A stretch of DNA of 64,000 nucleotides, from contig CBDCLE010000024.1 of NCBI GenBank assembly GCA_965218585.1, positions 192,001 to 256,000 on the forward strand, read 5' to 3'. Below, in pieces: positions 4,574 to 40,203 of the stretch (position 1 is the first letter of the stretch; each line of letters opens with the position of its first letter). The notes below the pieces were generated by a model. It saw only the letters and a program-made list of their open reading frames with translations. It searched no databases and had not been told where the DNA came from. The stretch comes from Terriglobia bacterium. Its GTDB lineage: Bacteria; Acidobacteriota; Terriglobia; 20CM-2-55-15. The translations under genes and the position numbers were made by a program.

Positions 4574-4577
<4 letters not shown>

Positions 4578-15599: not shown

Positions 15600-15710
15600 G
15601 AACTGAAGGAGCGGGTGCCCGTGCCGTAAAGTAGGTCGTCCATCCCTGCCTAGCGATGAAATCCATGCTCGAGTGCTGTTAAATCATCTTGTTGGACGTT
15701 GAGAATTGGC
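15600..15710 (+). repeat. Junction element copy: kinase-type tail (ELKERVPVP*) + dif-like core
   Basis: gaactgaaggagcgggtgcccgtgccgtaa ... agtgctgttaa atcatc ttgttggacgt tgag. Confidence 0.75.
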
Positions 15711-15754
15711 CTAGATACGGGCGCCAACCTTCTGATTGCTTTACAAATTCCTCT

Positions 15755-17120
15755 GAGGTCGTTCCAATCGGTGTGTAAAAAGAGAAGGCGGTGTACGCTT
15801 TCGGTGAATTCGGAACCGTAAGCAATCCCGGCAGCAATCGGGAGAAAGGTACACCACCCATGAAGAAGAAGAACATACCGGCATCAGTGGCGTCAACGAA
15901 CGCGTATGAAGGTTTGGAGGACTGGGCGCGATCCCGGGTCCAAGTCTGGCTACAGGAGCTGCTCGAGGACGAAGTCACTCAATTTCTGGGTCGGGAAAAG
16001 TCGGAGCGGAGTCCGAATCGACGAGGATACCGGAACGGTCACGGGAAGCCGCGACGCTTCGCAATGATGAACGGTACGATGGAGGTTCGACGACCTCGGG
16101 TTCGAAACACCGCCGAGCGGTTCGAGAGTCAGATCCTGCCGTATTTTCGACGGAAATCGAAACAGCTGGGCGAGCTACTTCCCGATCTCTACCTCCACGG
16201 TCTGGCCACAGGGGACTTCGAGCAGGCCATGCGCGGACTGCTTGGCGCTGGCGCTCCGTTGTCGCGAGCATCGATCCAACGACTGAAATCGGCCTGGCAG
16301 TTGGAGTATGACGAGTGGGTCCAGCAGGACCTGTCCGGCCTCGAGGTCGTGTACCAGTGGGCAGACGGCTTGTACGTGAAAGCCGGGGATCGCGAAAGAG
16401 CGAGCGGCATTGCTGGTGATCATCGGAGCCTTGTCAGACGGGCGCAAAGTGGTGTTGGCCTGTGAGAGCGGGCAGCGGGAAAGCAAGGAGTCCTGGAGCC
16501 GCATTCTGCGCAATCTCCAGAGACGGGGCCTGAAGCTGGGACGGCTGACTGTCGCGGACGGTCACCTGGGCATCTGGTCCGCGCTGGCCGAGCAACAGCC
16601 CCAGGGCCAGGAACAACGCTGCTGGAACCACAAGTCGATCAACGTGGTCGATCATCTGCCGAAGACCGAGCAGCCCGCGGCCAGACAGCTGCTTCATGGG
16701 ATGGCCTTCGCGAACTCCCGCGCGGCCTGCGAACGAAAGCGGGATCAGTTCGTCCGCCGATATGAGAAGAACTATCCCAAAGCGGGTGAGACGCTGTTGC
16801 GGGACTGGGACCGGATGATTACTTTCTATGAGTTCCCGAAACAACACTGGGTGCATCTGAGAACAACCAACATCGTCGAATCGCCCTTCGACATGGTTCG
16901 CCTCCGCACCAACGCCGCTCGCCGATTCAAGCGTGTCGAGAATGCAACGGCAATGATCTGGAAGCTACTACGTGTCGCTGAGAAGGCTTGGCGACACTTA
17001 AAAGGATCCGAACTCTTACAAGAGGTCTATGATGGTCAGCAATTCGCTGACGGCATCAGAGTCGTGATGAAATCGAAGGCCGCCGCCTGATGACTTTTAC
17101 ACACCTTTTGTAATGACCTC
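15755..17120 (+). mobile_element. IS256-family element with 8-bp target duplication
   Basis: IRs gaggtcgttccaatcggtgtgtaaaa / ttttacacaccttttgtaatgacctc; ATTCCTCT at 15747-15754 and 17121-17128. Confidence 0.95.
15860..17090 (+). CDS. IS256 (Mutator) transposase split by one extra G near 16386-16389
   Basis: GYRNG, WADGLYVKAG, ADGHLG, QRCWNHK, LRTTNIVES; removing one G joins the two ORFs (KAGIAKERAALLVIIG). Confidence 0.9.
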
Positions 17121-17187
17121 ATTCCTCTCTTAGTATTCCTTACCGAGTCTTGCGCGGTTTTCGCGACACTCCATAACCCTGTCAAGA

Positions 17188-18222
17188 TCAATCGGTTAGG
17201 AAATGATACATTCCGAGAACGTTCAGGCCCACCCACTCGAAACCGGCCCAGTGACTGTACTCCTCCATCTTGATATCTTGCTGCATCTCCTCCAAAGACT
17301 GACCTGCGGTGATTCCGGCCCCAACCTGGTCTCGCAGCTTCTCCATGTATTCCCGCCACGCTCTGACGTCTTCCCGGGTACCGACCGGCCCGTGGCCTGG
17401 CGCAACGAAATCAAAGTCTGTTGCCAGCTGCTCCGCTTCTATGATTGCTGCCATCCACTCTTGGAACATCCCATCCTCGTAGTCCATTTCCCTGAACGGA
17501 AGCCGCCCGAACGTGACGTAGTCGACGACGAACATCACGTCGTCGTCAGGAAAAGTGATCATGCTTGAATCCATTGAGTGATTCATCTCGCCAACCCAGC
17601 TCATGTTCACCCGTTTGCCGCCCAAGCGGATCTGAATCTCGTCTTCATAGGTGATGTCCGGGGGGCGCACGAAGCTCACGGGTCCGCGCACAACTTCCGC
17701 GCCACTGAGCACGCCGTCCTTGTTCGCATCGAATCTAGCAAACTGATTTACATCCCCCACCTCGCTCTCCTCTACGGTGCCGTTACCATTGCTATCCAAC
17801 GCCGCCACCGGTGCATACTGCCCGACCACTTGGGACAGAGTGGTAAGAGCCGGTGGCATCGCCAGGTGTGACAGCATGTTGGTATGACCTACAAACCGGG
17901 CGGTATCTTGAAAGACGTCCCCGCCGGAGGCGTGGTCCCAGTGGTAGTGGCTGTAGATTACGTATCTGACGGGGACCCCGAAGCGGTCGCTGAATTCCTG
18001 CTTCAGCCACATCGCGAAATCGGTATTGATCGGGTCTGCCAGGACAATGCCCTCCGGCGTGACCAAGAAAACGGTGCCGTGGTTGTTGTTCATGGCCCTG
18101 TAGACGCCACCGGAAATGTGGCTAATAGACCGATTCGGTGCCGATTGGCCAACGCCCTCGGACGCAAGTACCACCGTTAGGACCAAGCCCACGAAAACCA
18201 TTCTTATCGTACTGATACGCAT
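17188..18222 (-). CDS. Secreted MBL-fold metallohydrolase with EF-hand-like insertion
   Basis: SHYHWDH, NHS, PGHG; DSNGNGTVEESE and DANKDGVLSGAE loops. Confidence 0.85.
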   Translation of the reverse strand: MRISTIRMVFVGLVLTVVLASEGVGQSAPNRSISHISGGVYRAMNNNHGTVFLVTPEGIVLADPINTDFAMWLKQEFSDRFGVPVRYVIYSHYHWDHASGGDVFQDTARFVGHTNMLSHLAMPPALTTLSQVVGQYAPVAALDSNGNGTVEESEVGDVNQFARFDANKDGVLSGAEVVRGPVSFVRPPDITYEDEIQIRLGGKRVNMSWVGEMNHSMDSSMITFPDDDVMFVVDYVTFGRLPFREMDYEDGMFQEWMAAIIEAEQLATDFDFVAPGHGPVGTREDVRAWREYMEKLRDQVGAGITAGQSLEEMQQDIKMEEYSHWAGFEWVGLNVLGMYHFLTD

Positions 18223-18300
18223 CTGGGTCTCCTCGTTCAACAGCAAGACCGCGCTGTGCTGTACTTTCTAGTTACTTGAACATGGGCACGGCTGATTCGA

Positions 18301-18418
18301 CGGGTGCCGGTACCGTAATTCTTTAAGGCTAACTCCCGATCATCTTCGCTGACACTAAAAACCCCATCTTTTAGCCCTTTTTTCACTGTCCGAGAAGATC
18401 GTTTGCGAGGACTTGAGA
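18301..18418 (+). repeat. Junction element copy: RVPVP* tail + degenerate cores
   Basis: cgggtgccggtaccgtaa ... ctgtccgagaa gatcgt ttgcgaggact tgaga. Confidence 0.7.
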
Positions 18419-18677
18419 ATTGCGTGCCGTTAACTCAGGACAATTCTCGATGTTAGACGCCCGATGAATTAGGGGAGGTTTTCAGAACTCCAACTCTTGA
18501 AATGCGCGGCTTAGCGCCTCGGTGATAGCCACGTCGAATGGCCCATCCGCCACGTTATCGCGCGATCAACTGGGGCGAGTTTTTTAGAAAGCGCGCGGCC
18601 GGCGACTACGCGGATTACGGCGACGAGATTCAGATCAGCCACCACTACGCATAGCGCCAACGGCAAAGGGGGACTCG

Positions 18678-20132
18678 TCAGTCCCCTCTTGTCACCTGAC
18701 CGATGAAGTCGACGATTACCGTCGAAACGCTCTCATCGGCCGTGCCGAGCGCGAGCAACTGTGACGAATGATTGTGTCCCAGGCTCTGCGCATAGCGCGG
18801 CATGACGCCATGCTCAACGACGAGCTCGTGCAACAGAATGGCCAATGAGCGCGTGTAGCGCGGCGCATCCCATTCCGCCGTCGTAAACAACACCGGAATA
18901 TCGGTGCTGCTGACATTGCCGGGGACGACGCGCTCGGCATACGCCGACGCATCCTCGCCAAAATACGCGCGCTCACCGGGCGTCGGATTGTCGAAATCGA
19001 ACGTATACGGGCCCGACATGAGGATCGCGCCGGCCGCGCGGATCGTGCCGGGCGGCATGAGCTCGGGCCTGAACACGTAAGTCGCCGAATGAAAGGAGCC
19101 CGTCGAGAGGCCCATGACGAATATCTGCTCCGGATCGCCGCCGTATTCATCGGCATGCTCGCTGAGCCAAGCCACGGCCGCGCCGACGTCTTGCGCGCCG
19201 GCAGGCCAAGGATGAGTTCCGGCGAGACGATAGTTCGACTTGACGCCGACTAGTCCTAAGCTTGCGAAATAGTTCGCAGCGGCCGCCGTTGATTCTTTGC
19301 TGCCGCCGATCAAGCCGCCGCCGTGAAAGACGACAATGACGGGCACGGGATCGTTCGAGTTGCGCGCCGTCGCCGTGTGAATGTCGAGTTGCTGGCGCTC
19401 GTGCGAGCCATAGGCGAGCCCTTCCACGACTTCGATCTCAGCCGCTTCGTAGAGGGTTGGTACGGGCGCCACGATCTGAGCCGTCTCGCCCGCGATCGGT
19501 CCATCGAACACGCGCCCGAAAGCTGCGAGGCGCTCCGCGACATCGGCCGGCAGGCCTTCGCGCGCGACATCGGCCGTGCTTAAGCCTCGTTCATCGGGCG
19601 GCGAGAAGCGCAATGTCTGGAGGGCCTTGTACGCGTCATCGCAGCGCTCCAAGCTCACCGACCTGCTGTGATACACGGGCGTGATCAATACGGGCGTTCC
19701 CGCTACCGCTCCGGCGCCGCCGGCAAGCGACACGCACAGATCCGGTCGCGATTCGGGGCTCAGCCGCCCCCACTCGAAGCGCCACTGCTGCGTAGCGCTG
19801 TCGGTGCACTCGCTCGCGTGTAGCGTGGCGCCGGGCTCGAGCGCCGTGGCGGCCAGGCAGCGATCGTATTCGGGCAAGGTTATCGCGCGCGTCCCGTCGG
19901 TGCGTGCAAAGATCTGATCCCCGAGCTCCGCGCCATATTTGCACGTATGCACCTGCAGCGGTTCGTCGACTCTCGCGTTTTCTCCGAAACCCCGGATATC
20001 GAGGCAATAACCACGGGCTTCATCGAGCGCGTAGGTCGTACGCAATAATCCGACGTCATCGGCCCAAGCGATCTGTGTGCCGATCGCGATGAGGAACAAC
20101 GCGGCGCCGCAACGGTAACTCTTGTTCAACAT
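18678..20132 (-). CDS. Secreted ricin-B-lectin + alpha/beta hydrolase (esterase) fusion
   Basis: GYCLDI, QQWRF lectin motifs; HGGG, GLSTG nucleophile elbow, HNHSS. Confidence 0.85.
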   Translation of the reverse strand: MLNKSYRCGAALFLIAIGTQIAWADDVGLLRTTYALDEARGYCLDIRGFGENARVDEPLQVHTCKYGAELGDQIFARTDGTRAITLPEYDRCLAATALEPGATLHASECTDSATQQWRFEWGRLSPESRPDLCVSLAGGAGAVAGTPVLITPVYHSRSVSLERCDDAYKALQTLRFSPPDERGLSTADVAREGLPADVAERLAAFGRVFDGPIAGETAQIVAPVPTLYEAAEIEVVEGLAYGSHERQQLDIHTATARNSNDPVPVIVVFHGGGLIGGSKESTAAAANYFASLGLVGVKSNYRLAGTHPWPAGAQDVGAAVAWLSEHADEYGGDPEQIFVMGLSTGSFHSATYVFRPELMPPGTIRAAGAILMSGPYTFDFDNPTPGERAYFGEDASAYAERVVPGNVSSTDIPVLFTTAEWDAPRYTRSLAILLHELVVEHGVMPRYAQSLGHNHSSQLLALGTADESVSTVIVDFIGQVTRGD

Positions 20133-20285: not shown

Positions 20286-20797
20286 ATGAAACGGGGACTC
20301 CTTATATCGTTGGTCTTCGTCTAGGCGCCGGCCGCCGCCCAGCAAAACGTGCCGTTTGCGAACGGCATCCCCGTCGCATCGGAGCTCAAGGTGTCGCCCG
20401 TGCCCAAGACCTGCGAGACCGCCGAAGGGCAGGATATCCGCGTCGCGGTCGTCGCGCGCGACCTCGCGAATTCCTACAGCTTCGCGTTCTGATCGTCAAC
20501 ATGGAAACGATCAATCAAGATCGTGTGCGGCTGCTCGATTCACCGGCTTACCCGAATGTCAGTGAGGCTTACGCTGAGACCTTCGACAGGCAAAAGAGAC
20601 TGGCAGGAACCTTCGATGTCTGGGTTTCATCACATGCCGGTCATTTCGGACTTCACGATAAATTCGAGCCTGGAGACTCTTACGATCCGGAGCGCTTCGT
20701 CGGGATCGACGAATATTTGGAACGCATTCAGCAGTACGAGCAGATCTATCAAGATAAGCTCAAACAAGAACGGCAAGATCGATTGACCAAAGAATGA
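20286..20797 (+). pseudogene. Chimeric remnant: 5' of a PQQ sugar-dehydrogenase-like gene joined to 3' of a subclass B3 MBL-like gene
   Basis: MKRGLLISLVFV*APAAAQQ..ETAEGQDIRVAVVARDLANSYSFAF, then LIVNMETIN..YPNVSEAYAETF..DVWVSSHAGHFGLHDKF. Confidence 0.6.
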
Positions 20798-20818
20798 GGT
20801 CAAGTCCTGAGAAATCAT

Positions 20819-20950
20819 GCCAGCTCAACCGGTCGCTGCAACACATGCATTAAATGTCTCTGCCGGAGTTGCGAACTCCAGAGTCTTGCGTGGCCGTTGG
20901 TTGAGCCTTCTTGCAATGAAACTAAGACTTGCCTTAGGTTCGCACCGGCT
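20819..20950. mobile_element. Possible IS30-family end remnant
   Basis: gccagctcaaccggtcgctgcaacac resembles IS30-type terminal sequences (from memory); no transposase present. Confidence 0.35.
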
Positions 20951-21017: not shown

Positions 21018-21290
21018 ATGAGTGCGAAACGAAAGGTCGAGATTTTCAGTGCCGGTTGTCAGCCGTGTGCGGCCGCTGTCAAGCTTGTTCACAGCCTAGC
21101 AGGTGATGCCGACGAAGTAATCATCTTGGATATGCATGACCCCGACACTGCCGTCCGAGCCAAAGAATACAGAATCGAAAGGCTCCCTGCTGTGTTCGTA
21201 AATGGTCATCCTGCCGATTGTTGCGCAGGCGTCGGCGATGGAGTGAGTGAACAAGCTCTCAGGAATGCGGGTGTCGGCAAAGCGCTCTGA
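21018..21290 (+). CDS. Small thioredoxin/glutaredoxin-fold protein
   Basis: VEIFSAGCQPC, LPAVFVNG, CC; RBS aaggag. Confidence 0.85.
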   Translation: MSAKRKVEIFSAGCQPCAAAVKLVHSLAGDADEVIILDMHDPDTAVRAKEYRIERLPAVFVNGHPADCCAGVGDGVSEQALRNAGVGKAL

Positions 21291-21346
21291 AGTCGAGGAT
21301 CGACGTAGCGGCCCGGATAACTGCTGCCATTAGAGGAAAACATCCC

Positions 21347-21463
21347 ATGAGCGAAGAACTTCGAGACAGACAGATTTCGGAAATCATCAAGCTCCTCCAA
21401 AGAATCGCTGAAGCACTTGAAAGAACAGCTGAAATAGAACACTTAGAACACACTGACACTTGA
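21347..21463 (+). CDS. Candidate 38-aa small protein
   Basis: RBS gagga; MSEELRDRQISEIIKLLQRIAEALERTAEIEHLEHTDT. Confidence 0.4.
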   Translation: MSEELRDRQISEIIKLLQRIAEALERTAEIEHLEHTDT

Positions 21464-21510
21464 AAAATGGCGAAATCGACGGAAGCTGCCGTTATTGGGA
21501 CTAAGGAGCA

Positions 21511-21685
21511 CAGAACTGATTCGAGGAACTGAAGGAACGGGTGATTGTGGAGGTCAAGTCCTGAGAAATCATCTTGTCGGACGTTGAGCATTGGCGAATT
21601 ACTGAGGTTTTTCAACGTCCGGAAAGTCGTTTGTCAGGACTTGAGAGTTTTCTTGCGTATAAATCCCATCTGTAGTCAGATTTAC
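21511..21685 (+). repeat. Best-preserved junction element: kinase-type tail + two inverted dif-like cores + promoter-like block
   Basis: QN*FEELKERV; agtcctgagaa atcatc ttgtcggacgt ... acgtccggaa agtcgt ttgtcaggact; cttgcgtataaatcccatctgtagtcagatttac. Confidence 0.85.
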
Positions 21686-21720
21686 GCACCTTACGGTCCG
21701 CTTCGACATACACTAAAAGA

Positions 21721-22737
21721 ATGTACCGGCGTCAGTTTCTTAAGGCATCAGCATTGATAGGCGGTGGCCTCGTAGGCACTCCTGTATTCAACACCAACGC
21801 TCAGCAATCCGGTCAAACTGGTACCAGCGAGCAACCCATTCGCATCACCCTGGGTGGGTATGGCCCATCAACGTCAAGTTTCAGCCAGGGATTGAAGCAA
21901 ATCGGCGATCGCCTCGGCGCCAGATTTGGCGACGATGTCGAGATCGAATATCTCTACAATATTCTAGATCTTGGTTATGAGGAAGCAGGCGATCTGACAC
22001 GGCTAGTTGATAATGGTGTGCTCTCGCTCGCGTACTTAACCATGTTCGACGAGATTCCCGCGTTGGAAGTCGCCGCGCTTCCATTTCTGTTTGCAAACAG
22101 CGCCGCAGCAAGGGTTGCGATGGATGGAGCGCTAGGACAGTCAGCAATAGATACTATCGAGGCTGATACGAACTTTCGCGTTTTGGGATTTTTCGAAAAT
22201 GGCTTTCGCCATGTATCCAACAGTGTCAGGCCGGTTCACAGTCCGGTCGACTTGAAAGGCCTCTCAGTTCGCGTTCTTGGTGTGCAAGCCAGAACATTTG
22301 AATTGCTTGGAGCCAACCCGAAGGTCATGCCTCTATCAGCGGTATTCGATGGCCTTCAGTCTGGCGAATTGGATGGTCAGGAAAACCCTTTTGAAAACGT
22401 TGTCAGCTACAACCTCTACCACTCACAGCGTTATTACACTGAGACTTATCATTCGTACTTGTCTCGACCAATTTTCGTTCACCGACCTTCATTTGAAGTC
22501 TGGCCTGATGCACTGCAAATGGAGATGCGCACGGCCGTCAAAGAAGCGGTAACCCTTCAGCGGCAGCTGCATGATCAGGCAGAAATCGATTCTGCCGAGA
22601 TTATTCGTGAGGCTGGTGGGGAAATTGTTACGCTCACGCCGCAGCAACGCCAGGCATTTGTCGATGCCGTTGCGCCTATTTACGCAGACGCTCAGAATCA
22701 ATACGATCGGGTACTGCTGAATCTGGTAGGTCTATAA
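21721..22737 (+). CDS. TRAP transporter substrate-binding protein (DctP), Tat signal
   Basis: RRQFLK, ENGFRHV, DLKGLSVRV, LDGQENP. Confidence 0.92.
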   Translation: MYRRQFLKASALIGGGLVGTPVFNTNAQQSGQTGTSEQPIRITLGGYGPSTSSFSQGLKQIGDRLGARFGDDVEIEYLYNILDLGYEEAGDLTRLVDNGVLSLAYLTMFDEIPALEVAALPFLFANSAAARVAMDGALGQSAIDTIEADTNFRVLGFFENGFRHVSNSVRPVHSPVDLKGLSVRVLGVQARTFELLGANPKVMPLSAVFDGLQSGELDGQENPFENVVSYNLYHSQRYYTETYHSYLSRPIFVHRPSFEVWPDALQMEMRTAVKEAVTLQRQLHDQAEIDSAEIIREAGGEIVTLTPQQRQAFVDAVAPIYADAQNQYDRVLLNLVGL

Positions 22738-23726: not shown

Positions 23727-23794
23727 CGGTCGGCCGAGCGACTCGACGAGAGCGATACTACTGAAACAGTTTCTGTGATGTATGGGAGGTAAGG

Positions 23795-32921: not shown

Positions 32922-32994
32922 GATTGGGGGGGGACGGCGCTTCAGCAGAAGGTTTCAAGGGGAGCGGAGCGTTTCTGTGGGACGACCAAGGAGA

Positions 32995-33999: not shown

Positions 34000-34026
34000 A
34001 TCCCCTTGCCGGGAGTTGAAAACTGG
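33999..34026 (+). repeat. Junction half-core copy
   Basis: aatccccttgccgggagttgaaaactgg vs aatcatcttgtcggacgttgagcattgg. Confidence 0.55.
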
Positions 34027-34114
34027 GGGGACCCTTCCGAAGAACGGACGTCTCGATTGCTTCTGACCATTCTTGTCAAGTATTGTCTACCGAACCCTTT
34101 CACTGGAGGAACGC

Positions 34115-35041
34115 ATGTCGTCTGAACAAGAACCTGTCTGGGATGGTAATAAGGTCGAACTTCGGTCAGAGAAGCTGGATGATGGCGTTTTTGCCTATTA
34201 CCCGAGTGACGCGAAAGAGTTGGAGAGTCAGGGGCGACCCGTGGCCACCAGCGGAGGCTTCGTCGTCGGCGAAAAGGGCGTCCTGATCATCGACACGATG
34301 CTCAATAAGCGCCTGAACATGCAGGTACAGGCCCTGGTGTCAAAGGAGACGGACAAACCGATCGCTTTTGCCCTCAACACGAGCTTTCACGGGGACCACT
34401 CTTACGGGAACATGTACCTACCTGACGAAACGGTCATCATTCAGCACGCCAACACCAAAAAATACGTCGATGCCCACTTCGAAGAGGATACAGAATTCAT
34501 GATCCAGAATCTGGGTCAGGGCCGCGGTATCGAAGAGATTGTGCCGAAGACTGGCGACATTCTGGTTTCCGAAGGTGGGCGGCTCGAGGTGGATCTCGGT
34601 GGCCGGTCTGTGGAGATCATCGACTTCGGCTTCGCCCAAACGGGTGGAGACCTCTTTGTCTGGGAGTCTGCGGCCAAGGTGTTGTGGACAGGTAACCCTG
34701 TGATAACGATCAAGCCATCACTGCCCTGGCTTCTGGACGGCCATCTGGTTGAAACCCTGGATACGCTCGAACGAGTCTACGACTTTCTACCGAAAGACGC
34801 TCGCGTGGTTCCGGGCCATGGGTCAGTCATGGTACCCGAAGATATTCGTTGGCACATTGACTATCTCGAAACTGTCAAGAGACAAGTGCAGGAAGCTGTC
34901 GATGGCGGCCTGACGCTAGAGCAAACCGTCGATAAAGTGAAAATGCCCGAGTTCGAAGGTTATGCCTTGTTTGGCTGGGTTCATCCGGCCTTGAACGTGT
35001 CGGCAGCTTACAGAGACCTCAGTGGCCAGGCGGACAGCTGA
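34115..35041 (+). CDS. MBL-fold metallohydrolase
   Basis: NTSFHGDHSYGN, VPGHG; RBS ggagg. Confidence 0.88.
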   Translation: MSSEQEPVWDGNKVELRSEKLDDGVFAYYPSDAKELESQGRPVATSGGFVVGEKGVLIIDTMLNKRLNMQVQALVSKETDKPIAFALNTSFHGDHSYGNMYLPDETVIIQHANTKKYVDAHFEEDTEFMIQNLGQGRGIEEIVPKTGDILVSEGGRLEVDLGGRSVEIIDFGFAQTGGDLFVWESAAKVLWTGNPVITIKPSLPWLLDGHLVETLDTLERVYDFLPKDARVVPGHGSVMVPEDIRWHIDYLETVKRQVQEAVDGGLTLEQTVDKVKMPEFEGYALFGWVHPALNVSAAYRDLSGQADS

Positions 35042-35076
35042 AAGCCCGTCTCGGTTGTCGTACATGAAAAATGATT

Positions 35077-35115
35077 CTCGGGTTCCCGTAAATCCCCTGG
35101 TCGGAAGCTCGGAAT
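35077..35115 (+). repeat. Degenerate junction core copy
   Basis: ggttcccgtaa atcccc tggtcggaagc. Confidence 0.5.
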
Positions 35116-35261
35116 CGAACCTACCACTTTCGATCAATCGGCAATACAGCCATTAGGTCGGCCCGACGTCCAGCGTCTCTAGATAACGATGGTGACCGAT
35201 TGCCAGCTTGCAAGATGTCAATCGCACGCTTCGATCCAAGTCAATGACACAAAGGAAAGAT

Positions 35262-35627
35262 ATGACTCCCAGACCAATCAACTTCACCCAGAAGCTCTCC
35301 AAATTTGCCGAGCACTGGTCGCCGCGCGTCGTCGCGGCAATGAACGACTATCAGTTCAAACTGGTCAAGCTAAAGGGTGAGTTCATATGGCATGATCACA
35401 AAGACACTGACGAAGTCTTTATCGTCCTGAAGGGCAAGATGGAGATCGGATTTCGCGATCGGTCTGTCGCTGTCGAAGCGGGAGAAATGTTTGTAGTGCC
35501 GAAGGGAGTGGAACACATCACCCGAGCCACGAGCGAATGCCACGCGCTCATCGTGGAGCCACAAGGTGTCGTAAACACAGGAGAAGCTGGGGGTGCCTTA
35601 ACCGCCGCGAACGACGTGTGGGTATAG
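35262..35627 (+). CDS. Cupin domain protein
   Basis: [27 protein letters not shown]. Confidence 0.92.
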
Positions 35628-35834
35628 ATCCTGACCGACATATGAAACAGAAGAGCAGAGGTAGGCGATGAAAAGGGCTGTATTCACCACGAATAGCCGC
35701 GGTTGGCTTAGCAACTTTCGGGCTAAACCGCTGTTAAATCATCTGTCGCCGTCGACTAATTCCGGACCCACAGCCGTGAAAACAGTTTGTTTGTGCGATC
35801 CTACTTTCCCTCATTGACACCGGAGAGCAATAAG

Positions 35835-37280
35835 ATGGAACAGCAGAACTATATCGACGGCACCTGGGTCGGCGCAGCCGACGGGCAGACGTTCGAGCAG
35901 CGCAATCCGGCCGACCTCGAAAAGGTGACCGGGCTCTGGCCCAAGGGCACCCGCGATGACGCAAAAAAGGCGATCGAATCCGCGCACGCGGCTTTCCCCG
36001 AATGGTCCGGGATCGGGGTCTACAAGCGTGCGGAGTATCTGTCGCGGGCGGTCGCGGTGCTGAAGGGCAGGATTGAAGAGGTCGCGGCAACGCTGACCCA
36101 GGAAAACGGCAAGACCCTGGCCGAGTCGCGGGCCGAGGTGGGGTCGGCGGTGCGCGAGATGGAGTATCAGATCGCGCAGGGGGTGTCGATGTGCGGCGAG
36201 ACCGTGCCCTCGGCCGAGCCCGGGGTCTTCGCCTATAGTGTGCGGCGGCCGCTGGGGGTGGCGTCGATTATCAGCCCGTGGAATTTTCCGTTTAACGTGC
36301 CGGGCCGCAAGTGCACACCGGCGCTGATTAGTGGCAATACCATCGTCTTTAAGCCCGCGAGCCTGACGCCGGGTGCGGGCAAAGCCTTTGTCGATGTATT
36401 TGTCGAAGCTGGCTTGCCGCCGGGGGTCCTGAATTTCGTCTGTGGCGGGGGGAGTACGGTCGGGGACGAGATGATCGCGAATCCGCTGGTGGAGTCGGTG
36501 TCCTTTACGGGATCGACGGGCGTCGGCAGGGGCATCCAGCAGAGCGTGGCCCAGACGCTAATCCGCACCCAACTGGAAATGGGCGGCAAGAATCCGGTGG
36601 TGGTCTTAGAAGACGCCGACCTTGACAAGGCGGCGGATGCGGTGGCCACGGCGGCCTATGCCTGTGCCGGGCAGTGGTGCACGTCGACGAGCCGGGCGAT
36701 CGTGGTCGAGGAGGTGGCGGAGGTCTTTACCGAGAAGGTGTTGGAGCGGGTGCGGGCGATCCGGGTGGGGGAGGGTCGCGGGGATGTCGATATGGGGCCG
36801 GTGTGCGGCTCGGACCAGCTGGAGACGATTATGGGATATATCGAAATCGGGCAGGGTGAAGGGGCCGAACTGGTCGAGGGCGGACAGCGGCTGACCGACA
36901 ATGGCCTGGGCCAGGGGTGTTTTATCGCGCCGACGGTTTTCGCCGGAGTCAAACCGGAGATGCGGATCGCGCAGGAGGAGATCTTCGGACCGGTGTTGAG
37001 CGTGATGGCGGCGCGGGATTTTGGCGAGGCGCTCGAGATGGCCAACCATGTGGAATTTGGGCTGTCGTCGTCGATTTTTACCAAAGACATTTCGCGCGCG
37101 TTTCAGTTTCTGGACCAGACCGAGGTGGGATTGACGCACGTGAACATGATGACGGCCTATCGTGAGCCGCAGTTGTCCTTTGGCGGAGTGAAGTCATCGG
37201 GGCACGGGATCCCCGAGTCGGGCAAGACCGGGATCGAGTTTTTTACCGAGCACAAGGTGGCTTTTATCAAGTATCTCTGA
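35835..37280 (+). CDS. Aldehyde dehydrogenase family protein
   Basis: PWNFP, FTGSTGVG, LEMGGKNP, AGQWCT, EEIFGPV. Confidence 0.96.
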   Translation: MEQQNYIDGTWVGAADGQTFEQRNPADLEKVTGLWPKGTRDDAKKAIESAHAAFPEWSGIGVYKRAEYLSRAVAVLKGRIEEVAATLTQENGKTLAESRAEVGSAVREMEYQIAQGVSMCGETVPSAEPGVFAYSVRRPLGVASIISPWNFPFNVPGRKCTPALISGNTIVFKPASLTPGAGKAFVDVFVEAGLPPGVLNFVCGGGSTVGDEMIANPLVESVSFTGSTGVGRGIQQSVAQTLIRTQLEMGGKNPVVVLEDADLDKAADAVATAAYACAGQWCTSTSRAIVVEEVAEVFTEKVLERVRAIRVGEGRGDVDMGPVCGSDQLETIMGYIEIGQGEGAELVEGGQRLTDNGLGQGCFIAPTVFAGVKPEMRIAQEEIFGPVLSVMAARDFGEALEMANHVEFGLSSSIFTKDISRAFQFLDQTEVGLTHVNMMTAYREPQLSFGGVKSSGHGIPESGKTGIEFFTEHKVAFIKYL

Positions 37281-37468
37281 CGGTTGTTGCGGAAACGTTG
37301 GATGAACATTCCATCCGGATAGCAGATGGTTTCGACCGCCGAAGAGCGGCGATCCCGCTTTATTCTGTTGACTGTTCCATGCCACCGCAGTACATAGCAC
37401 CCAACGTTCTCAGACGATTCGAAACATTCACCACAAAGGGAGGCACAAAGCCTTTCGAGGGGGTTCTT

Positions 37469-37963
37469 ATGCGCAGTTTTGTTGCTGTCGGTCTGTTGGT
37501 GGTCATGTGGGCGTTCGTCCCTCGAGCCGGAGCTCAGTCTGGCACGCATCCGATAATCGGGAACTGGGTGCAATCCATGGTCGATGCGCCGCAGACAGCA
37601 GTGCACACTTATGCAGTACGTGAGGATGGGTTCATGGTCTGGAATCGCGCCACTGTCAGCGCTCAAGGGGTTGCTGGATTTATCCAGGTGGTTCTCAAGT
37701 CGGACGGTGCCGACTATCCCATCTACCAGAATGCCACCTTAGCTAATATGTCGGCGACTGGAACGCCCATCACTTTCACGGGTTCATTCACGCTCACCAA
37801 TGATGCTCTTGAGATGGTGACTAAGAACAGCGGAGAACCGGACGGAACAATCCGAACCTGGACAGTTTCCAGTGACGGCCAGACTTTGACGCAGATTGCC
37901 AGAAGCACAAACGACCAAGGCGAGACTACTGAGGCTGAAACCATCTACAAGAGGGCGCAGTAG
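37469..37963 (+). CDS. Hypothetical secreted beta-rich protein
   Basis: Signal peptide, IIGNW, VSSDGQTLT. Confidence 0.75.
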   Translation: MRSFVAVGLLVVMWAFVPRAGAQSGTHPIIGNWVQSMVDAPQTAVHTYAVREDGFMVWNRATVSAQGVAGFIQVVLKSDGADYPIYQNATLANMSATGTPITFTGSFTLTNDALEMVTKNSGEPDGTIRTWTVSSDGQTLTQIARSTNDQGETTEAETIYKRAQ

Positions 37964-38050: not shown

Positions 38051-38449
38051 CTAACCGACCTGATAGGTGCCGGCAGAGAAGTTCAGCTTCACGTTGACTG
38101 TGCCTTCGTTGACCAGCCATGGACGGACTGTAAACTTGCGCGCGCCGCCCGAGTGCATTGGATCGTTCTCAGCAACCTGACGTGCTCGGGCCAGGTTCCC
38201 TGCCCGTAGGACGATCATGCCATCGCCTTTCCAGGTTTCTTCATCGTCCTCCCAGTGCGGACCGGCACCAACGTAGACACCCGTCCGTTCCATTTCCTGC
38301 TGGTAGGCGAGATGTGCCTCGAGGTTGGCCATAACGGGTCCCATTCCGCCGGTCGGCGTCGTATGAATGACGTACAGCTGCAATTGCAGCATGTTCTGGG
38401 TGGCTTCAAGGATCTCGGCACGTGTGATCTGCGGCTCGTCAGCACTCAT
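38051..38449 (-). CDS. YciI family protein
   Basis: LEAHLAYQ, GAGP, DPMH. Confidence 0.88.
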   Translation of the reverse strand: MSADEPQITRAEILEATQNMLQLQLYVIHTTPTGGMGPVMANLEAHLAYQQEMERTGVYVGAGPHWEDDEETWKGDGMIVLRAGNLARARQVAENDPMHSGGARKFTVRPWLVNEGTVNVKLNFSAGTYQVG

Positions 38450-38593
38450 GGGAGCGACTCCTTAACGAAATAATTTGGAAACGAGTAGTTTCGGACCTCG
38501 CCCAGATCCGCACGGTAGAATGCGGCGTGAACGTGGTAACGTTCACGCCGTGTGGACCTACAAGATTAGATTTCGCTCGATGATGCGATGTCT

Positions 38594-39208
38594 CTAGCCG
38601 GGTGCTCCCGCGTTGTGCGCGCCCACAAGCCACGCCGCGCCTTCGGCGTACAGCCGTTCGACTTCCGGACCTTTCAATCCCGGCATTCGCTCCTTCACCT
38701 TGTGGCCAACCTGCGTCTGCAGGTAGGCAAGGTGCTTGTAACCTTCGGGAAAGCGATTGAGCACCGCCGGGTCGAGCTTCAGACTGGCACCCGGTTCGAC
38801 CGGATCGATGCGGTCCTTCTCGTAGATGGCCTGACGCCGCACCAGTCCCCACTTCCCGGCTCTTTTCTCGAAGAAGTCGTAGAACCGGCCGGTACAGACG
38901 ACGTCACACAAGACATCATGCACAGGTGCGCGCTGACTGATGGTCATCTTAGTCTGTGCAATTGCGCGGTCGCCGGCGATATCCGAGGTGTGCGCGCCAT
39001 GAGAGTGAATGATGCTGACACCCTTCTCCCACCCCTCACGCCGGGCCTTCGTGAAATCCATTGCCGATGCCTGAAACCAGGTCGCCGTCATCCAGCCGTC
39101 CTCATGCCACAGTTGGGCGAAGCGTTGCCAGTCACCGCTGTCACTGTAGATGATCCACTTATCGACGATTTCACGAATCGCATCGGCGTCAGCTCTATTG
39201 TCCTGCAT
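38594..39208 (-). CDS. SnoaL/NTF2-like protein
   Basis: DSGDWQRF, GRFYDFFEKR; RBS ggagg. Confidence 0.85.
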   Translation of the reverse strand: MQDNRADADAIREIVDKWIIYSDSGDWQRFAQLWHEDGWMTATWFQASAMDFTKARREGWEKGVSIIHSHGAHTSDIAGDRAIAQTKMTISQRAPVHDVLCDVVCTGRFYDFFEKRAGKWGLVRRQAIYEKDRIDPVEPGASLKLDPAVLNRFPEGYKHLAYLQTQVGHKVKERMPGLKGPEVERLYAEGAAWLVGAHNAGAPG

Positions 39209-39397
39209 CTGACTCCCTCCTCTGTGGCTGGTCTTGGGCGCTTCGTCAAATACGAAGCCTGGCAAGTATAGCTCGCCGAAACAACGAAACCCTGACAGCG
39301 GGCGCACTTCTAGTCGCCGAACAGATCAGACAGTACTCGAAAATGATCTTGTCGGAAATCGGGAGTTGAACCGAGTGTAGTTCGCGTGGGAAAGAAC

Positions 39398-40003
39398 CTA
39401 AAATTCCGACTGTTGCAGAGCGAGGTTTAGCTCCTCGGTGATGGCCAGGTCGTCGCGAATCTGATTCAGCAGATCCACATCGATGGATTCACCACCTGCA
39501 AGAACAATAATGTTGGGAACGAGGCGGCGGCTTACGTTCACCAACCGCTGTACTCTCCGTTCGAGGCTTTCTTCGGGAAGCGGAGCAACATTTATTTGAG
39601 GCGGATCGGTCCCGAAATTGACGATGTCCCGCAGTTGGTCAGTTGATTCGTCTATGTCTCTTGACCGCCGATCCAGTTCCGGCTGTGACCAATCTTCGGA
39701 AAGGGAAGCGAAATAGATTTCTTCTATCTGCAGGGCAAACTCTCGGGTCAGCCTCAAGAGGGATTCTAAACGCGACTGGAAAGCCCCATCGCGAAAGGCG
39801 GAACTCTGCTCGAGGGTTAAGGGTAGGGCGTCTTCCAGAGCTCGGAAGCCATTTCGCCTTTGCTCTTCCAGTTGACGCTCGGCGTTCTTTCTGATCTCGA
39901 ACTGCGTTCTCCGACCAGTTCTTGAGTCCTCTTGAGCATGGACAGGTATCGTGCTGATAGAGAACACAAACGCAAGGACGATGAATGTAACCGTGACTCT
40001 CAT
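39398..40003 (-). CDS. Hypothetical secreted helical protein
   Basis: Signal peptide, 201 aa. Confidence 0.75.
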   Translation of the reverse strand: MRVTVTFIVLAFVFSISTIPVHAQEDSRTGRRTQFEIRKNAERQLEEQRRNGFRALEDALPLTLEQSSAFRDGAFQSRLESLLRLTREFALQIEEIYFASLSEDWSQPELDRRSRDIDESTDQLRDIVNFGTDPPQINVAPLPEESLERRVQRLVNVSRRLVPNIIVLAGGESIDVDLLNQIRDDLAITEELNLALQQSEF

Positions 40004-40083
40004 TGCTCTAAAGACAACATAGACTTACCGACGTTGGATCGTAAAGAAGAATCGACTGGTGCCCGAAATTCGTGGTTTGACCC

Positions 40084-40203
40084 TTTCCTTGCCAATCCTT
40101 CCTCGTGTAGATAGACTTACCGGAATTTTGCCGTCCTTTTGGCGATGTACGAATACATGATATCAGGCATCAAACTCGGCCACTACAAGATCCTGTCTGC
40201 AAC
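40084..40203 (+). pseudogene. Promoter-like block + 5' stub of a Ser/Thr kinase-type gene
   Basis: TTGCCA-N17-TAGACT; ATG 40157 gives MISGIKLGHYKILSA, which breaks off before the Gly-rich loop. Confidence 0.65.

What the first reader, a model, noticed from the sequence alone, without database searches (positions are those of the whole stretch)
15600..40203. Candidate new gene-capture array: cargo units separated by a repeated dif-like junction element
Seen: most intergenic gaps from 15.6 to 40.2 kb hold part of one composite element, with its parts always in the same order on the + strand: kinase-type tail, palindromic core(s), promoter-like block. Core or half-core copies lie at about 15668, 18388, 20796, 21554, 21612, 22973, 26147, 27981, 28021, 30962, 33999, 35077, 35730 and 39341. 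I saw no convincing copy in the flanking core regions. The units between copies are unrelated 1-3-gene cargoes or gene fragments in mixed orientation. Established: arrays of this shape occur in integrons (attC) and Acinetobacter pdif modules, but this element lacks attC RYYYAAC/GTTRRRY ends. Inference: an undescribed cassette platform served by a tyrosine recombinase encoded elsewhere, since none is in the window.
Basis: partly seen in the sequence, partly recalled or inferred. Interest (0 to 1): 0.9.

Follow-up and report, generated by a model that had tools for sequence, protein, structure and literature searches.

The report
Hairpin junctions between hollowed-out kinase genes
The repeated "junction" is real, but it is the conserved end, hairpin and promoter of a many-copy protein kinase gene family whose insides have been replaced by unrelated accessory genes, giving cassette-like arrays with no recombinase identified.

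Summary
The composite repeat exists. Its core ("A") is a 34-nt imperfect hairpin. It has at least 77 copies in this genome (nhmmer E<1e-6) and 141 and 96 strict-pattern copies in two congeners, mostly in co-oriented arrays.

In the window, 4 of the 14 listed copies are significant, 2 are marginal, 1 is an exact half cut by an 89-nt MITE, and the rest are at chance level.

The flanking parts are not an att site. The "tail" is the 3' end of a Pkinase+PD40 Ser/Thr kinase family. The "promoter block" is that family's promoter, 5'UTR and start codon. Most family members are reduced to 5' and 3' stubs, with unrelated genes between them.

Each cargo unit recurs at a different locus in relatives (80-98% identity). 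In one congener, junctions with >=99% identical flanks switch partner within A.

A is hit by two IS110-type and one IS30-type element, and IS91-type units sit beside it.

This genome has no integron integrase. The congeners' integrons use classical attC sites, which are unlike A.

No single crossover point fits the data, and between-species cargo breakpoints lie off A.

Best reading: homology-driven reshuffling at a REP-like kinase-gene junction. A true mini-attC-like site is not excluded.

The parts
15580..15629 (+). Orphan 3' tail of the kinase family (...GELKERVPVP, stop at 15627-15629); stop-to-stop frame only 20 aa
15669..15703 (+). Hairpin A, sequence-conserved but degenerate copy (does not fold, 0 kcal/mol)
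   Evidence: CM 60.1 bits, E 1e-11; fold
15704..15754 (+). Beginning of the kinase promoter block, cut off by an IS256-family insertion
   Evidence: same block intact at other copies
15755..17120 (+). IS256-family element with a split transposase (15791-16465, 16410-17090) and terminal inverted repeats
   Evidence: Pfam Transposase_mut; inverted repeat I4; many copies in congeners
18288..18320 (+). Orphan tail remnant (..RRVPVP, stop)
18370..18422 (-). Inverted hairpin copy A' (AAACGATC subtype)
   Evidence: CM 37.4 bits, E 1.7e-6
20796..20818 (+). Left half of hairpin A, 23/23 identical to 21550-21572, cut in the loop
   Evidence: (family D5)
20818..20906 (+). 89-nt MITE with ends like the IS30-type element F3 of G001, inserted in the A loop; the same insertion point occurs at C13:7107 and C18:26751
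21506..21551 (+). Orphan tail remnant (FEELKERVIVEVKS, stop); frame 14 aa
21552..21588 (+). Hairpin A, best copy in the window
   Evidence: CM 68.8 bits, E 1e-13; -6.4 kcal/mol, z -2.3
21599..21650 (-). Inverted copy A'; with A it forms a 100-nt long hairpin (-23.7 kcal/mol, z -5.8)
   Evidence: CM 38.6 bits, E 9e-7
21638..21722 (+). Kinase-family promoter/5'UTR block, here in front of a DctP gene
   Evidence: nhmmer E 4.3e-6 with a model built from kinase upstream regions
22880..22930 (+). Orphan tail remnant (frameshifted); the A candidate listed after it at 22973 is not significant
   Evidence: (D3)
26139..26195 (-). Marginal hairpin match
   Evidence: CM 16.3 bits, E 0.12
26882..26933 (+). 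Orphan tail (VLNWFEDLKERLPVP); its stop overlaps the ATG of the PALP gene; tail plus gene recur together in G003 and G001
27981..28007 (+). Right half of hairpin A joined directly to the end of the PALP unit
   Evidence: CM E 0.09 for 27935-28007
28010..28093 (+). A'-like remnant plus kinase promoter block in front of the LVIVD gene
   Evidence: 71% over 84 nt to 21602-21685 (D1); shared with G001
40077..40200 (+). Kinase promoter/5'UTR plus 13-codon N-terminal stub (M-I-S-G-I-K-L-G-H-Y-K-I-L) in front of an amidase gene
   Evidence: compare
17188..20132 (-). Cargo: MBL-fold/EF-hand protein (17188-18246) and esterase with ricin-type lectin domain (18678-20132)
   Evidence: Pfam; esterase unit 95% identical at G001:C9:1235711-1237843
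21018..22737 (+). Cargo: thioredoxin-like (21018-21290) and TRAP DctP (21721-22737), each found at separate loci in relatives
   Evidence: Pfam
23085..26684 (.). Cargo: unknown ORF, DUF6152, CMD (-), dioxygenase (-), unknown ORF
   Evidence: Pfam
26931..30867 (.). Cargo: PALP enzyme, LVIVD-repeat protein, beta-propeller (-)
   Evidence: Pfam
31012..37963 (+). Cargo: nitrile hydratase alpha/beta/accessory, unknown ORF, MBL-fold, cupin, aldehyde dehydrogenase, unknown ORF. The candidates listed at 30962, 33999, 35077 and 35730 are not significant
   Evidence: Pfam; CM
38051..41967 (.). Cargo: YCII (-), SnoaL_4 (-), unknown ORF (-), amidase (+); the candidate listed at 39341 is not significant
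   Evidence: Pfam; CM

Best explanation
What the junction is (shown)
The repeated junction is the boundary region of a many-copy Ser/Thr kinase gene family (Pkinase + PD40 propeller, about 915 aa). In order it holds:
- the gene's conserved 3' coding tail (..NWFEELKERVPVP, stop);
- 9-20 nt later, a 34-nt imperfect hairpin A (13-bp stem, two single-base bulges, 6-nt loop ATCATC);
- often an inverted second copy, A';
- the family's promoter, 5'UTR and start codon.

What has happened to the genes (shown)
In this genus most family members are hollowed out. Only a promoter or 5' stub and a 3' stub plus hairpin remain. One to three unrelated accessory genes lie between them, mostly on the same strand as A.

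What the hairpin does (shown)
The hairpin is a hotspot. Junctions with near-identical flanks switch partner within it in a congener. Two IS110-type elements and one IS30-type element insert into it, and IS91-type units sit next to it.

Mechanism (inferred)
- The 50-140 junction copies per genome act as portable homology. Units flanked by them can be looped out, duplicated, moved between arrays and taken up from relatives by ordinary homologous exchange, possibly helped by the hairpin.
- The kinase promoter would drive the captured genes, and the hairpin would end or stabilise the transcript.
- The first placement of a foreign gene inside a kinase gene would be an illegitimate event, different for each unit. 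This would explain the variable stub lengths.
- The window array is an old, decayed example.
For: Copy number and arrangement
- The repeat family has 77 copies at E<1e-6, clustered.
- Neighbouring copies are co-oriented in 37/48 intervals in G000, 65/73 in G001 and 57/64 in G003. The longest ORF lies on the A strand in 27/36, 39/59 and 37/55 intervals.

Hairpin
- 87.5% of stem cells pair. One stem pair covaries (UG 22, GC 14, CG 9). Only 1/500 shuffles reach the observed score.
- Well-preserved single copies fold at -6.4 to -7.5 kcal/mol. The A-A' doublet folds at -23.7 kcal/mol, z -5.8.

The tail is kinase coding sequence
- Variation among 29 tails is concentrated at third codon positions (entropy 1.28 against 0.44 and 0.44).
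- The same C-terminal motif ends unrelated 911-1046-aa kinase-PD40 proteins from public data: 46/100 by a strict regex, and related forms in most of the 25 printed.

The tails are orphans
- Of 44 regex hits, I judged 32 to be family tails, and 23 are followed by A.
- Only 2 sit on frames of 400 aa or more.
- tblastn finds 4 long PD40 domains. The other tail-end matches span 19-66 aa.

The promoter block is the kinase upstream region
- An alignment of 16 A' copies runs into ATG..MESGTKLGHYEI..GKGGMGEVW.
- A model of this block finds 45 hits, 31 of them within 120 nt of A.
- There are 8 N-terminal stubs of 27-73 aa in G000 and about 15 of 19-146 aa in 344 kb of G001 arrays.
- An intact example is the C9 kinase. 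It is split by an IS256 and ends in tail plus A.

Cargo within one shell
- C2:111678 to 108655 holds a 70-aa stub, a 272-aa ORF, DUF4440, then tail and A.

Cargo dispersal
- Seven window units map to seven different places in G001, G003 and G004 at 87-95% identity.

Recent switches at A in G001
- Partner combinations U1-D1, U1-D2, U2-D1 and U3-D2 occur.
- A 1.33-kb A-cargo-A unit is present in 3 arrays.
- Complete divergence starts just left of A or 36-40 nt into it.

IS targeting
-.

No array-linked recombinase
-.
Against: - Homologous exchange over only 34-40 nt is inefficient. Yet several recent events in G001 fall inside A even where longer tail or promoter homology exists at other junctions.
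- In the right-sharing pairs whose hairpins differ at position +29 (3, plus the G000/G001 pair), the last difference lies at +29 and identity starts at +30 (TTGAG). This would also fit a fixed crossover like G|TT of attC. These positions are, however, the most variable in all copies.
- I have no explanation for why foreign genes so regularly replace kinase interiors while both stubs survive.
- No direct evidence exists for transcription from the block or for termination at A.
- No >=99% identical unit duplicates were seen in G000 itself.
- G001 contigs C6 and C11 share long near-identical segments. Some 'events' may therefore be one duplication, or strain mixture in an assembly.
Confidence: 0.5

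Rival explanations
1. A is a genuine site-specific recombination site: a miniature attC-like folded hairpin (or a Xer-type palindrome). The arrays are cassette arrays without a neighbouring integrase. A cassette would run from TTGAG.. through its gene to the hairpin. The kinase gene would be the ancestral and commonest cassette. The enzyme would be the genus integron integrase (lost or unassembled in G000), XerCD, or an unknown recombinase.
For: - The arrays are same-strand, with a median spacing of 1.8-2.6 kb and mostly one small enzyme gene per unit.
- The stem has two bulged bases and covaries.
- Class-2 copies carry outer boxes TCTCAAC...GTTGAGA, close to the attC R''/R' consensus (the consensus is recalled).
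- In the right-sharing pairs whose hairpins differ at +29, identity begins exactly at TTGAG.
- An A-cargo-A unit occurs in 3 arrays of G001.
- IS110-family elements target the hairpin. The IS1111/IS110 group is reported to choose specific target sites and its papers discuss attC and REP (listings).
- An integron integrase above the curated cut-off is present in 3 of 4 congeners.
- Two Xer-like genes are present in G000.
Against: - G000 has no integrase above the cut-off.
- A is absent from the 20-40 kb fetched around intI in G001, G002 and G003. Classical attC sites of about 100 nt lie there instead.
- A model of those attC sites finds only 2 hits in 344 kb of G001 arrays and 0 in 340 kb of G003 arrays.
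- A copy number does not follow intI: G002 has intI but only 7 copies.
- A lacks an unpaired central spacer and a variable terminal structure.
- Left-sharing pairs differ inside A.
- Cargo homology between species stops 40-220 nt from A on both sides, even when A is present on both sides in both genomes.
- Variable kinase stubs around the cargo are not predicted by insertion at A.
Confidence: 0.27
2. A is a REP/REPIN-like selfish palindrome spread by a RAYT-type (HUH Y1) transposase. The arrays reflect where it likes to insert, not a role in moving genes.
For: - It is a short imperfect palindrome in intergenic DNA, at tens to more than a hundred copies, with very different counts among congeners (53, 141, 7, 96, 1).
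- Inverted doublets occur.
- IS elements insert in its loop.
- Weak Y1_Tnp genes above the Pfam cut-off are present in all 5 genus genomes.
- REP families occur in dimers and clusters, and some lack a dedicated transposase (passages, PMC3733652).
Against: - A travels with its context. 23 of about 32 tails and 31 of 45 promoter blocks are adjacent to it.
- The tails diverge like coding sequence, so copies arose with the genes rather than by insertion of a small element.
- The Y1_Tnp genes are not flanked by A.
- Their presence does not follow the A count.
- There is no unpaired GTAG or CGTC tag (against the passages).
Confidence: 0.1
3. The junction is only a regulatory or terminator region of an ordinary tandem paralogue family that is decaying in IS-rich islands. 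The cargo arrived by unrelated routes, and the repeat plays no part in gene flux.
For: - The window copies are mostly degenerate.
- Arrays are full of IS21, IS256, IS4/5-type, IS110, IS30 and IS91 elements.
- Between-species breakpoints lie off the hairpin.
Against: - Recombinant junctions with >=99% identical flanks switch within A in G001.
- The same cargo lies next to A in different genomes with different neighbours.
- Retention of both stubs around about 30 units is hard to get from random decay.
Confidence: 0.08

Closest known systems
Integron cassette arrays without integrase (CALIN) and attC sites
   Same: - Same-strand clusters of structured, imperfectly palindromic sites less than 4 kb apart separate mostly single promoter-proximal accessory genes.
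- The stem has bulged bases.
- IS110-group elements target the site.
- Arrays are dispersed over the genome away from any integrase.
(Definitions from passages of PMC4889954.)
   Different: - A is 34-41 nt and has no unpaired central spacer or variable terminal structure.
- It does not resemble the classical attC sites next to intI in congeners.
- G000 has no intI.
- Each unit carries kinase-gene stubs and its own promoter.
- Unit boundaries are not shown to be precise.
REP / BIME / REPIN elements and Neisseria dRS3/NIME-type clustered repeats
   Same: - It is a short extragenic imperfect palindrome, with singlets and inverted dimers that can form a larger hairpin.
- It lies downstream of coding regions and occurs in clusters.
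- It is a target for IS elements.
- It has no dedicated transposase next to it.
(Passages of PMC3733652.)
   Different: - It has no unpaired GTAG or CGTC tag.
- It is tied to the two ends of one gene family rather than to arbitrary flanks.
- It separates swapped gene units rather than lying between stable core genes.
Acinetobacter pdif/dif modules (XerC/XerD)
   Same: - Small accessory gene modules are bounded by a repeated palindromic site.
- They occur in different contexts in related replicons.
- Site-specific IS elements target the site.
(Abstracts and listings; passages.)
   Different: - dif sites are 28 bp (11-6-11), and dif modules are described as flanked by them as inverted repeats.
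- A has 13-bp bulged arms and a 6-nt loop. Neighbours are co-oriented in 37/48 intervals, and the arrays are chromosomal.
- I did not compare A with this genome's own dif site.
Exchange of gene islands by homologous recombination between conserved flanks (Neisseria 'minimal mobile elements')
   Same: Under the best explanation, units move because conserved flanking sequence lets ordinary recombination place them. (Only titles and abstract starts were seen; the concept is otherwise recalled.)
   Different: Here the flanks are stubs of one multi-copy gene family plus a hairpin, repeated 50-140 times per genome. Any unit can therefore land at many places and form arrays.

Membership tests
Integron / CALIN (attC cassette array) | Integron integrase (IntI) in the element or genome | tested here: not met
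   TIGR02249 search of G000: best 83.7 bits against a cut-off of 265. G001, G002 and G003 have IntI at 440-458 bits, but no A lies within the 20-40 kb fetched around them. G000 is 95% complete, so loss through assembly cannot be excluded.
Integron / CALIN (attC cassette array) | attC architecture: R and L boxes, unpaired central spacers, extrahelical bases, variable terminal structure (PMC4889954 passages) | tested here: inconclusive
   Bulged bases and a 7-nt outer box pair (TCTCAAC/GTTGAGA in class-2 copies) are present. There is no unpaired spacer and no variable terminal structure. An HMM of the genus' own attC sites does not match A. IntegronFinder's covariance model was not available.
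Integron / CALIN (attC cassette array) | Sites clustered on one strand less than 4 kb apart | tested here: met
   37/48 neighbouring intervals co-oriented in G000; median spacing 1776 nt.
Integron / CALIN (attC cassette array) | Precise cassette boundary at one position of the site (G|TT; recalled) | tested here: inconclusive
   Right-sharing pairs whose hairpins differ at +29 become identical from TTGAG onward (3 pairs, plus the G000/G001 pair). Left-sharing pairs differ inside A at positions 10/11, 22/23 and 29, which are the most variable positions in all copies.
dif / pdif modules (Xer) | 28-bp site: 11-bp XerC and XerD arms around a 6-bp centre (PMC6449649 passage) | tested here: not met
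   A has 13-14-nt arms with one bulge each around a 6-nt loop, 34 nt in all. I did not compare it with the host's chromosomal dif.
dif / pdif modules (Xer) | Module flanked by sites as inverted repeats (passage) | tested here: not met
   Neighbours are co-oriented in 37/48 (G000), 65/73 (G001) and 57/64 (G003) intervals.
dif / pdif modules (Xer) | XerC and XerD encoded by the host | tested here: met
   Two 300- and 309-aa tyrosine recombinase frames at C10:73.4 kb and C3:185.3 kb. They are called Xer-like by similarity and size only.
REP / REPIN | Short imperfect palindrome, extragenic, high copy, with inverted dimers | tested here: met
REP / REPIN | Unpaired GTAG or CGTC tag at one end (PMC3733652 passages) | tested here: not met
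   There is no GTAG. CGTC occurs on the complementary strand, but inside the stem.
REP / REPIN | Cognate RAYT gene flanked by the repeat | tested here: not met
   The Y1_Tnp matches at C10:115768 and C3:160482 have no A beside them; the nearest copy is 2.1 kb away.
Pkinase + PD40 Ser/Thr kinase family (source of tail and promoter block) | Tail and start stub match full-length family members | tested here: met
   Pfam Pkinase and PD40 on the C9 gene; tblastn; upstream alignment; 100 public 911-1046-aa relatives, many with the same C-terminal motif.

The most novel reading that the evidence does not exclude
The hairpin is a previously undescribed miniature, attC-like single-strand recombination site (34-41 nt, two bulged bases, crossover just 5' of TTGAG). 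It defines a second cassette system running beside the classical integron in this genus. The system would have grown out of a kinase gene family, so that each cassette brings its own promoter. The recombinase would be the integron integrase acting on a non-canonical site, or an unknown enzyme.
Probability: 0.22. Interest if true: 0.85.

Novelty: new variant of a known kind. Interest (0 to 1): 0.58.

Why it matters
If the main reading holds, a multi-copy gene family can turn into a landing pad for accessory genes. Its conserved promoter, gene ends and hairpin give every captured gene an expression signal and a portable address. The result looks and behaves like a cassette array without any dedicated recombinase. 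That would be a simple route by which cassette systems could arise.

The finding also warns that integron-like arrays are not always integrons.

If the rival reading holds, it would extend the known range of attC-type sites and would show cassettes that carry their own promoters.

Either way, the arrays mark the variable gene pool of this genus. They hold enzymes such as nitrile hydratase, amidase, aldehyde dehydrogenase, MBL-fold hydrolases and dioxygenases.

Tried and rejected
- Rfam and tRNA scans of the window found nothing.
- An exact-pattern scan of genome contigs found 0 stretches; near relatives may be left out of that collection.
- Public reads: 15 runs hold parts of the stretch, and no RNA holder is listed. 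Laying 4 runs gave only Logan contigs of metagenomes. These break at the repeats, and their 'joints' have 22-39-nt sides on repeated junction sequence. This is no evidence either way on circles, excision or expression.
- A multi-copy 293-311-aa tyrosine recombinase lying about 160 nt from A in G001 and G003 looked like a candidate enzyme. It is the first gene of an IS91-type unit that inserts about 45 nt from A in either orientation, and it is absent from G000.
- TIR-bounded transposon model (A' ... A as the ends of one unit): the duplicated unit F2 and the right-sharing pairs have no A' at their left end.
- Loop or spacer crossover (Xer-like): right-sharing pairs differ to the right of the loop.
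- A crude regex for classical attC was too strict even for the known array, so I replaced it with an HMM.
- A literature search for the tail motif found only unrelated human-protein papers.
- I did not compare A with the genome's own dif site, and I could not run IntegronFinder.
- Supplementary files of papers were not consulted.

Full report
**Setting.** The window is G000:C24:192001-256000 of a 4.55-Mb, 26-contig genome that is 95% complete. Region 15.6-40.2 kb is IS-rich accessory DNA.
- An IS21 pair (istA/istB, 12387-14785) lies just before it.
- A broken IS256-type element lies at 15755-17120.
- After that come about 25 unrelated genes on both strands. They include MBL-fold proteins, an esterase, a thioredoxin-like protein, DctP, DUF6152, CMD, a dioxygenase, a PALP enzyme, an LVIVD protein, a propeller protein, nitrile hydratase alpha/beta/accessory, a cupin, an aldehyde dehydrogenase, YCII, SnoaL and an amidase.
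- Rfam and tRNA scans of the window are empty.

- First comes a coding-looking tail (..EELKERVPVP, stop).
- Next comes a palindrome, consensus TCAAGTCCTGAnAAATCATCTTsTCGGACGTTGAGAA, called A here. It is sometimes followed by an inverted copy, A'.
- Last comes a conserved block resembling a promoter.

An HMM built from genome copies finds 117 matches at E<=1, 89 at E<1e-3 and 77 at E<1e-6 in G000. A 23-nt pattern with up to 2 mismatches gives 53 hits, against 0 for the reversed control.

A covariance model (63 copies, 13 base pairs) was run unfiltered on the window.
- Four hits are significant: 21548+, 15663+, 21599- and 18370-.
- Two are marginal: 27935+ (E 0.09) and 26139- (E 0.12).
- The remaining hits inside the region score E 1.2-9.3. 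Two hits outside it (10655, 57066) score E 1.9 and 8.5, which is the same range.
- So about half of the 14 listed copies can be upheld. These are the four significant ones, the exact half-copy at 20796, and the 27981/28021 pair (71% over 84 nt to the 21602 copy). The rest are relics at best.

**The hairpin.**
- The alignment shows a 13-bp stem with a bulged T in the 5' arm, a bulged base in the 3' arm, and a 6-nt loop, ATCATC.
- The left arm comes in two forms, TCAAGTCC and TCAACGCC. The right arm, GGACGTTGA, is nearly fixed.
- 87.5% of stem cells pair, against 24-44% when the partner is slid. One inner pair covaries (UG 22, GC 14, CG 9, unpaired 17). Only 1 of 500 shuffles reaches the observed score.
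- As DNA, well-preserved single copies fold at -6.4 to -7.5 kcal/mol (z -2.2 to -2.9). The window copy at 15667 does not fold at all, and the A' copy at 18386 folds at only -3.2 kcal/mol (z -0.8). The A-A' doublet at 21552-21652 folds at -23.7 kcal/mol (z -5.8).

**What the flanking parts are.**

*The tail.*
- It precedes A by 9-20 nt in two linked classes. One has stop TGA, spacer TTTYCGAGG and the arm TCAAGTCC. The other has stop TAA or TAG, spacer ACGACCATGAAAATGATTC and mostly the arm TCAACGCC.
- Among 29 tails, variation sits at third codon positions: entropy 1.28, against 0.44 and 0.44 at positions 1 and 2. The tails therefore diverged as coding sequence.
- A regex finds 44 candidates. 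I judged 32 to be family tails, and 23 are followed by A within 80 nt. Only 2 lie on frames of 400 aa or more.
- Those two frames are PD40 propeller domains. The C9 gene is Pkinase (398 aa), then an inserted IS256, then PD40 (520 aa), then tail, then A.
- A public-protein search returns 100 kinase-PD40 proteins of 911-1046 aa. Many end in the same motif, for example ..VLNWFEELKERVPVN and ..VQNWFEELKRLVPTK. By a strict regex the count is 46 of 100. The tail is therefore an old feature of the kinase family, not of a mobile site.

*The 'promoter block'.*
- Aligning 16 A' copies with their downstream sequence runs through the block into ATGGAATCCGGCACCAAACTCGG.. This encodes MESGTKLGHYEI..GKGGMGEVW..VAIK, the kinase N-terminus.
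- A model of block plus 5'UTR finds 45 places in G000, 31 of them with A or A' within 120 nt.
- tblastn finds 7 long kinase domains of this family and 8 stubs of 27-73 aa in G000. In 344 kb of G001 arrays it finds 2 long domains and about 15 stubs of 19-146 aa.
- For the PD40 end, there are 4 long matches. The other matches to the protein's tail end span only 19-66 aa.

*Conclusion.* The 'junction' is the end of one kinase gene, the intergenic hairpin(s), and the start of the next. Most of the genes between junctions are no longer kinases.

*Examples.*
- At C2:111678-108655 the order is A', promoter, a 70-aa kinase stub, a 272-aa ORF, DUF4440, tail, A.
- In the window, 40077-40200 holds the promoter, the 5'UTR and 13 kinase codons, followed by an amidase.
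- The C2 array carries a methyltransferase, PCMT, a glyoxalase, a CDO-like protein, an MBL-fold protein, cytochrome c with a molybdopterin oxidoreductase, and DUF4440. All lie on the A strand, one or two genes per unit.

**Arrays.**
- Copies cluster at spacings of 0.4-5 kb.
- Neighbours are co-oriented in 37 of 48 intervals in G000, 65 of 73 in the G001 arrays and 57 of 64 in the G003 arrays.
- The longest ORF lies on the A strand in 27/36, 39/59 and 37/55 intervals.
- The apparent orientation switch at one end of many arrays is the inverted A' that heads the first unit.

**Relatives.** Among 40 relatives, only the genus carries many copies: G001 141, G003 96, G002 7, G004 1. There are single near-matches in 3 genomes of two other genera.

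The window's cargo units map one by one to different places:

| Window unit | Window coordinates | Place in a relative | Identity |
|---|---|---|---|
| esterase unit | 18641-20807 | G001:C9:1235711 | 95% |
| thioredoxin-like | 20911-21467 | G003:C1:723189 | 95% |
| DctP | 21642-22768 | G001:C1:110585 | 94% |
| PALP with its upstream tail | 26884-27982 | G003:C1:1685615 | 88% |
| LVIVD with its promoter block | 28060-29604 | G001:C5:46267 | 87% |
| nitrile hydratase | 30993-32741 | G004:C21:197882 | 88% |
| aldehyde dehydrogenase | 35817-37315 | G003:C2:1034497 | 93% |

- A copies lie next to several of these in the relatives.
- The homology, however, ends at varying places: inside A, at the promoter block, or 75-220 nt from A.
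- One unit lies between two A copies in both genomes (G000 C12:18942-20118 and G001). It is 92% identical inside, yet the 40-95-nt linkers to A are unrelated on both sides.
- Only a small part of 344 kb of G001 arrays has any counterpart in G000.

**Recent events.**
- In G001 several junctions have >=99% identical sequence on one side and unrelated sequence on the other.
- One junction type occurs as U1-D1, U1-D2, U2-D1 and U3-D2.
- A 1.33-kb unit (A, a DUF6152 gene, A) occurs in three arrays with different neighbours.
- After adding 340 kb of G003 arrays, the 8 right-sharing and 8 left-sharing pairs show the same thing (some share one event, and some are IS insertions). Complete divergence begins just left of A, or 36-40 nt into it. 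The switch therefore lies within A.
- Its exact position cannot be fixed. Differences inside A fall at positions 10/11, 22/23 and 29, which are the most variable positions in all copies (entropy 1.1-1.7). They occur in both kinds of pair.
- In three right-sharing pairs, and in the G000/G001 pair, the last difference lies at position 29. Identity runs from TTGAG onward.
- One pair (G1C10a_54510 with G1C11a_7541 and G1C6_20167) shares cargo at 99% but differs through the tail. This places that switch upstream of the tail.
- No such near-identical unit pairs were seen within G000.
- G001 contigs C6 and C11 share long 99.6-100% identical segments, so some pairs may not be independent.

**IS elements.** Multi-copy blocks ending in A turned out to be IS elements.
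- Two IS110-family elements (DEDD_Tnp_IS110 + Transposase_20) are inserted in the A loop or left arm.
- One IS30-type element (HTH_38 + rve) is inserted in the loop.
- The window's 89-nt MITE at 20818-20906 has the IS30-type ends and sits at the same loop position as copies at C13:7107 and C18:26751.
- A multi-copy tyrosine recombinase near A in G001, G002 and G003 belongs to IS91-type units (Phage_integrase + Zn_Tnp_IS91/Y2_Tnp). These insert about 45 nt from A in either orientation. G000 has none.

**Recombinase search.**
- G000 has no integron integrase: best 83.7 bits against a cut-off of 265. It has only two Xer-like frames and a few weaker integrase matches.
- G001, G002 and G003 have IntI at 440-458 bits.
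- The DNA around these genes holds classical attC sites of about 100 nt and no A.
- A model of those attC sites finds 4 weak hits in G000, 2 in the G001 arrays and 0 in the G003 arrays.
- Weak Y1_Tnp (RAYT-like) genes occur in all five genus genomes and are not flanked by A.

**Reading.**

*Shown:*
- the anatomy of the junction;
- its origin in the kinase family;
- the hollowed-out state of most family members;
- the one-by-one dispersal of cargo;
- recent partner switching within A in a congener;
- IS targeting of A.

*Inferred:*
- The repeated junctions serve as portable homology for ordinary recombination. This reshuffles and spreads units that once entered a kinase gene by illegitimate events.
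- The kinase promoter expresses the captured genes.

*Alternative.* A may instead be a true site for a recombinase, as a miniature attC-like hairpin. Same-strand arrays, bulged bases, the outer boxes, the TTGAG boundary in the right-sharing pairs, and the integron integrase in the genus all keep this open. Against it stand several points:
- G000 lacks intI.
- The arrays lie apart from intI and from classical attC sites.
- A copy number does not follow intI.
- Between-species breakpoints are imprecise.
- The kinase stubs are not predicted by insertion at A.

A RAYT-driven REP reading and a purely passive reading are less likely, for the reasons given under the rivals.

**Known systems.**
- The element shares form with attC/CALIN arrays (PMC4889954, passages).
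- It shares features with REP/BIME families, including clustered ones without a dedicated transposase (PMC3733652, passages).
- It resembles dif modules only loosely (PMC6449649, passages; other papers from listings only).
- Site choice by IS110/IS1111 elements is described in papers I saw only as listings.
- I found nothing in print on this kinase tail or on kinase-shell arrays, from the searches. These cover only the held library.

**Verdict.** The repeat and the arrays are real, and they are more interesting than plain REP elements. But the window shows a decayed example, the 'dif-like att site' reading is not upheld, and the mechanism remains open.

Noticed in passing
window 12387-14785: An IS21-type pair (istA with rve/Mu-transposase C-terminal domains, and an istB ATPase) lies directly upstream of the first junction.
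   Followed up: partly
window 20501-20797: A 98-aa frame matches only the C-terminal 80 residues of subclass B3 metallo-beta-lactamase models (50-64 bits, far below the cut-offs of 240-620). It is a gene fragment that travels with the esterase unit and is also present in G001.
   Followed up: partly
window 32739-32856: A separate 118-nt repeat, part of an 81% complementary inverted repeat (32729-32760 / 32835-32866). It has many copies at 84-95% identity in G001, G002 and G004. It is unrelated to hairpin A.
   Followed up: no
window 31012-32743, 35787-37280 and 40213-41967: Nitrile hydratase (alpha, beta, accessory), an aldehyde dehydrogenase and an amidase lie in separate units of one array. 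This is possibly a functionally linked nitrile/amide set assembled from separate units.
   Followed up: no
L019 (G002:C41:5412000-5431999): A classical integron in a congener. intI lies at about 10452-11396 on the minus strand, with at least 6 attC sites of about 100 nt at 160-8600, on the 3' side of intI rather than the usual 5' side.
   Followed up: partly
L014 (G001:C1:91486-95004) and G002: IS91-type units that carry a 293-311-aa tyrosine recombinase gene in front of the Y2 transposase. The TIGR02249 search listed 6 identical 306-aa matches in G001 and more than 20 identical 311-aa matches in G002.
   Followed up: partly
G000 C1:111437-111720, C11:1684-1985; G001 C12 (L075 about 8460-8750): A unit starting CCACCAGGGGGTTAAGTGGCC.. 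lies directly after A in three places. It has a weak match to the genus' classical attC model about 250 nt further on. It may be an integron cassette that landed in an A array.
   Followed up: no
G001 contigs C6 and C11 (L062-L063, L072-L073): Long inverted segments are 99.6-100% identical between the two contigs. This is either a large duplication or a mix of strains in the assembly, and it affects how many recombination events are independent.
   Followed up: no
L043 (G000:C9:66000-81000): The best-preserved kinase gene of the family is split between its kinase and propeller parts by an IS256-type element. A second identical-type IS lies 7 kb upstream.
   Followed up: partly
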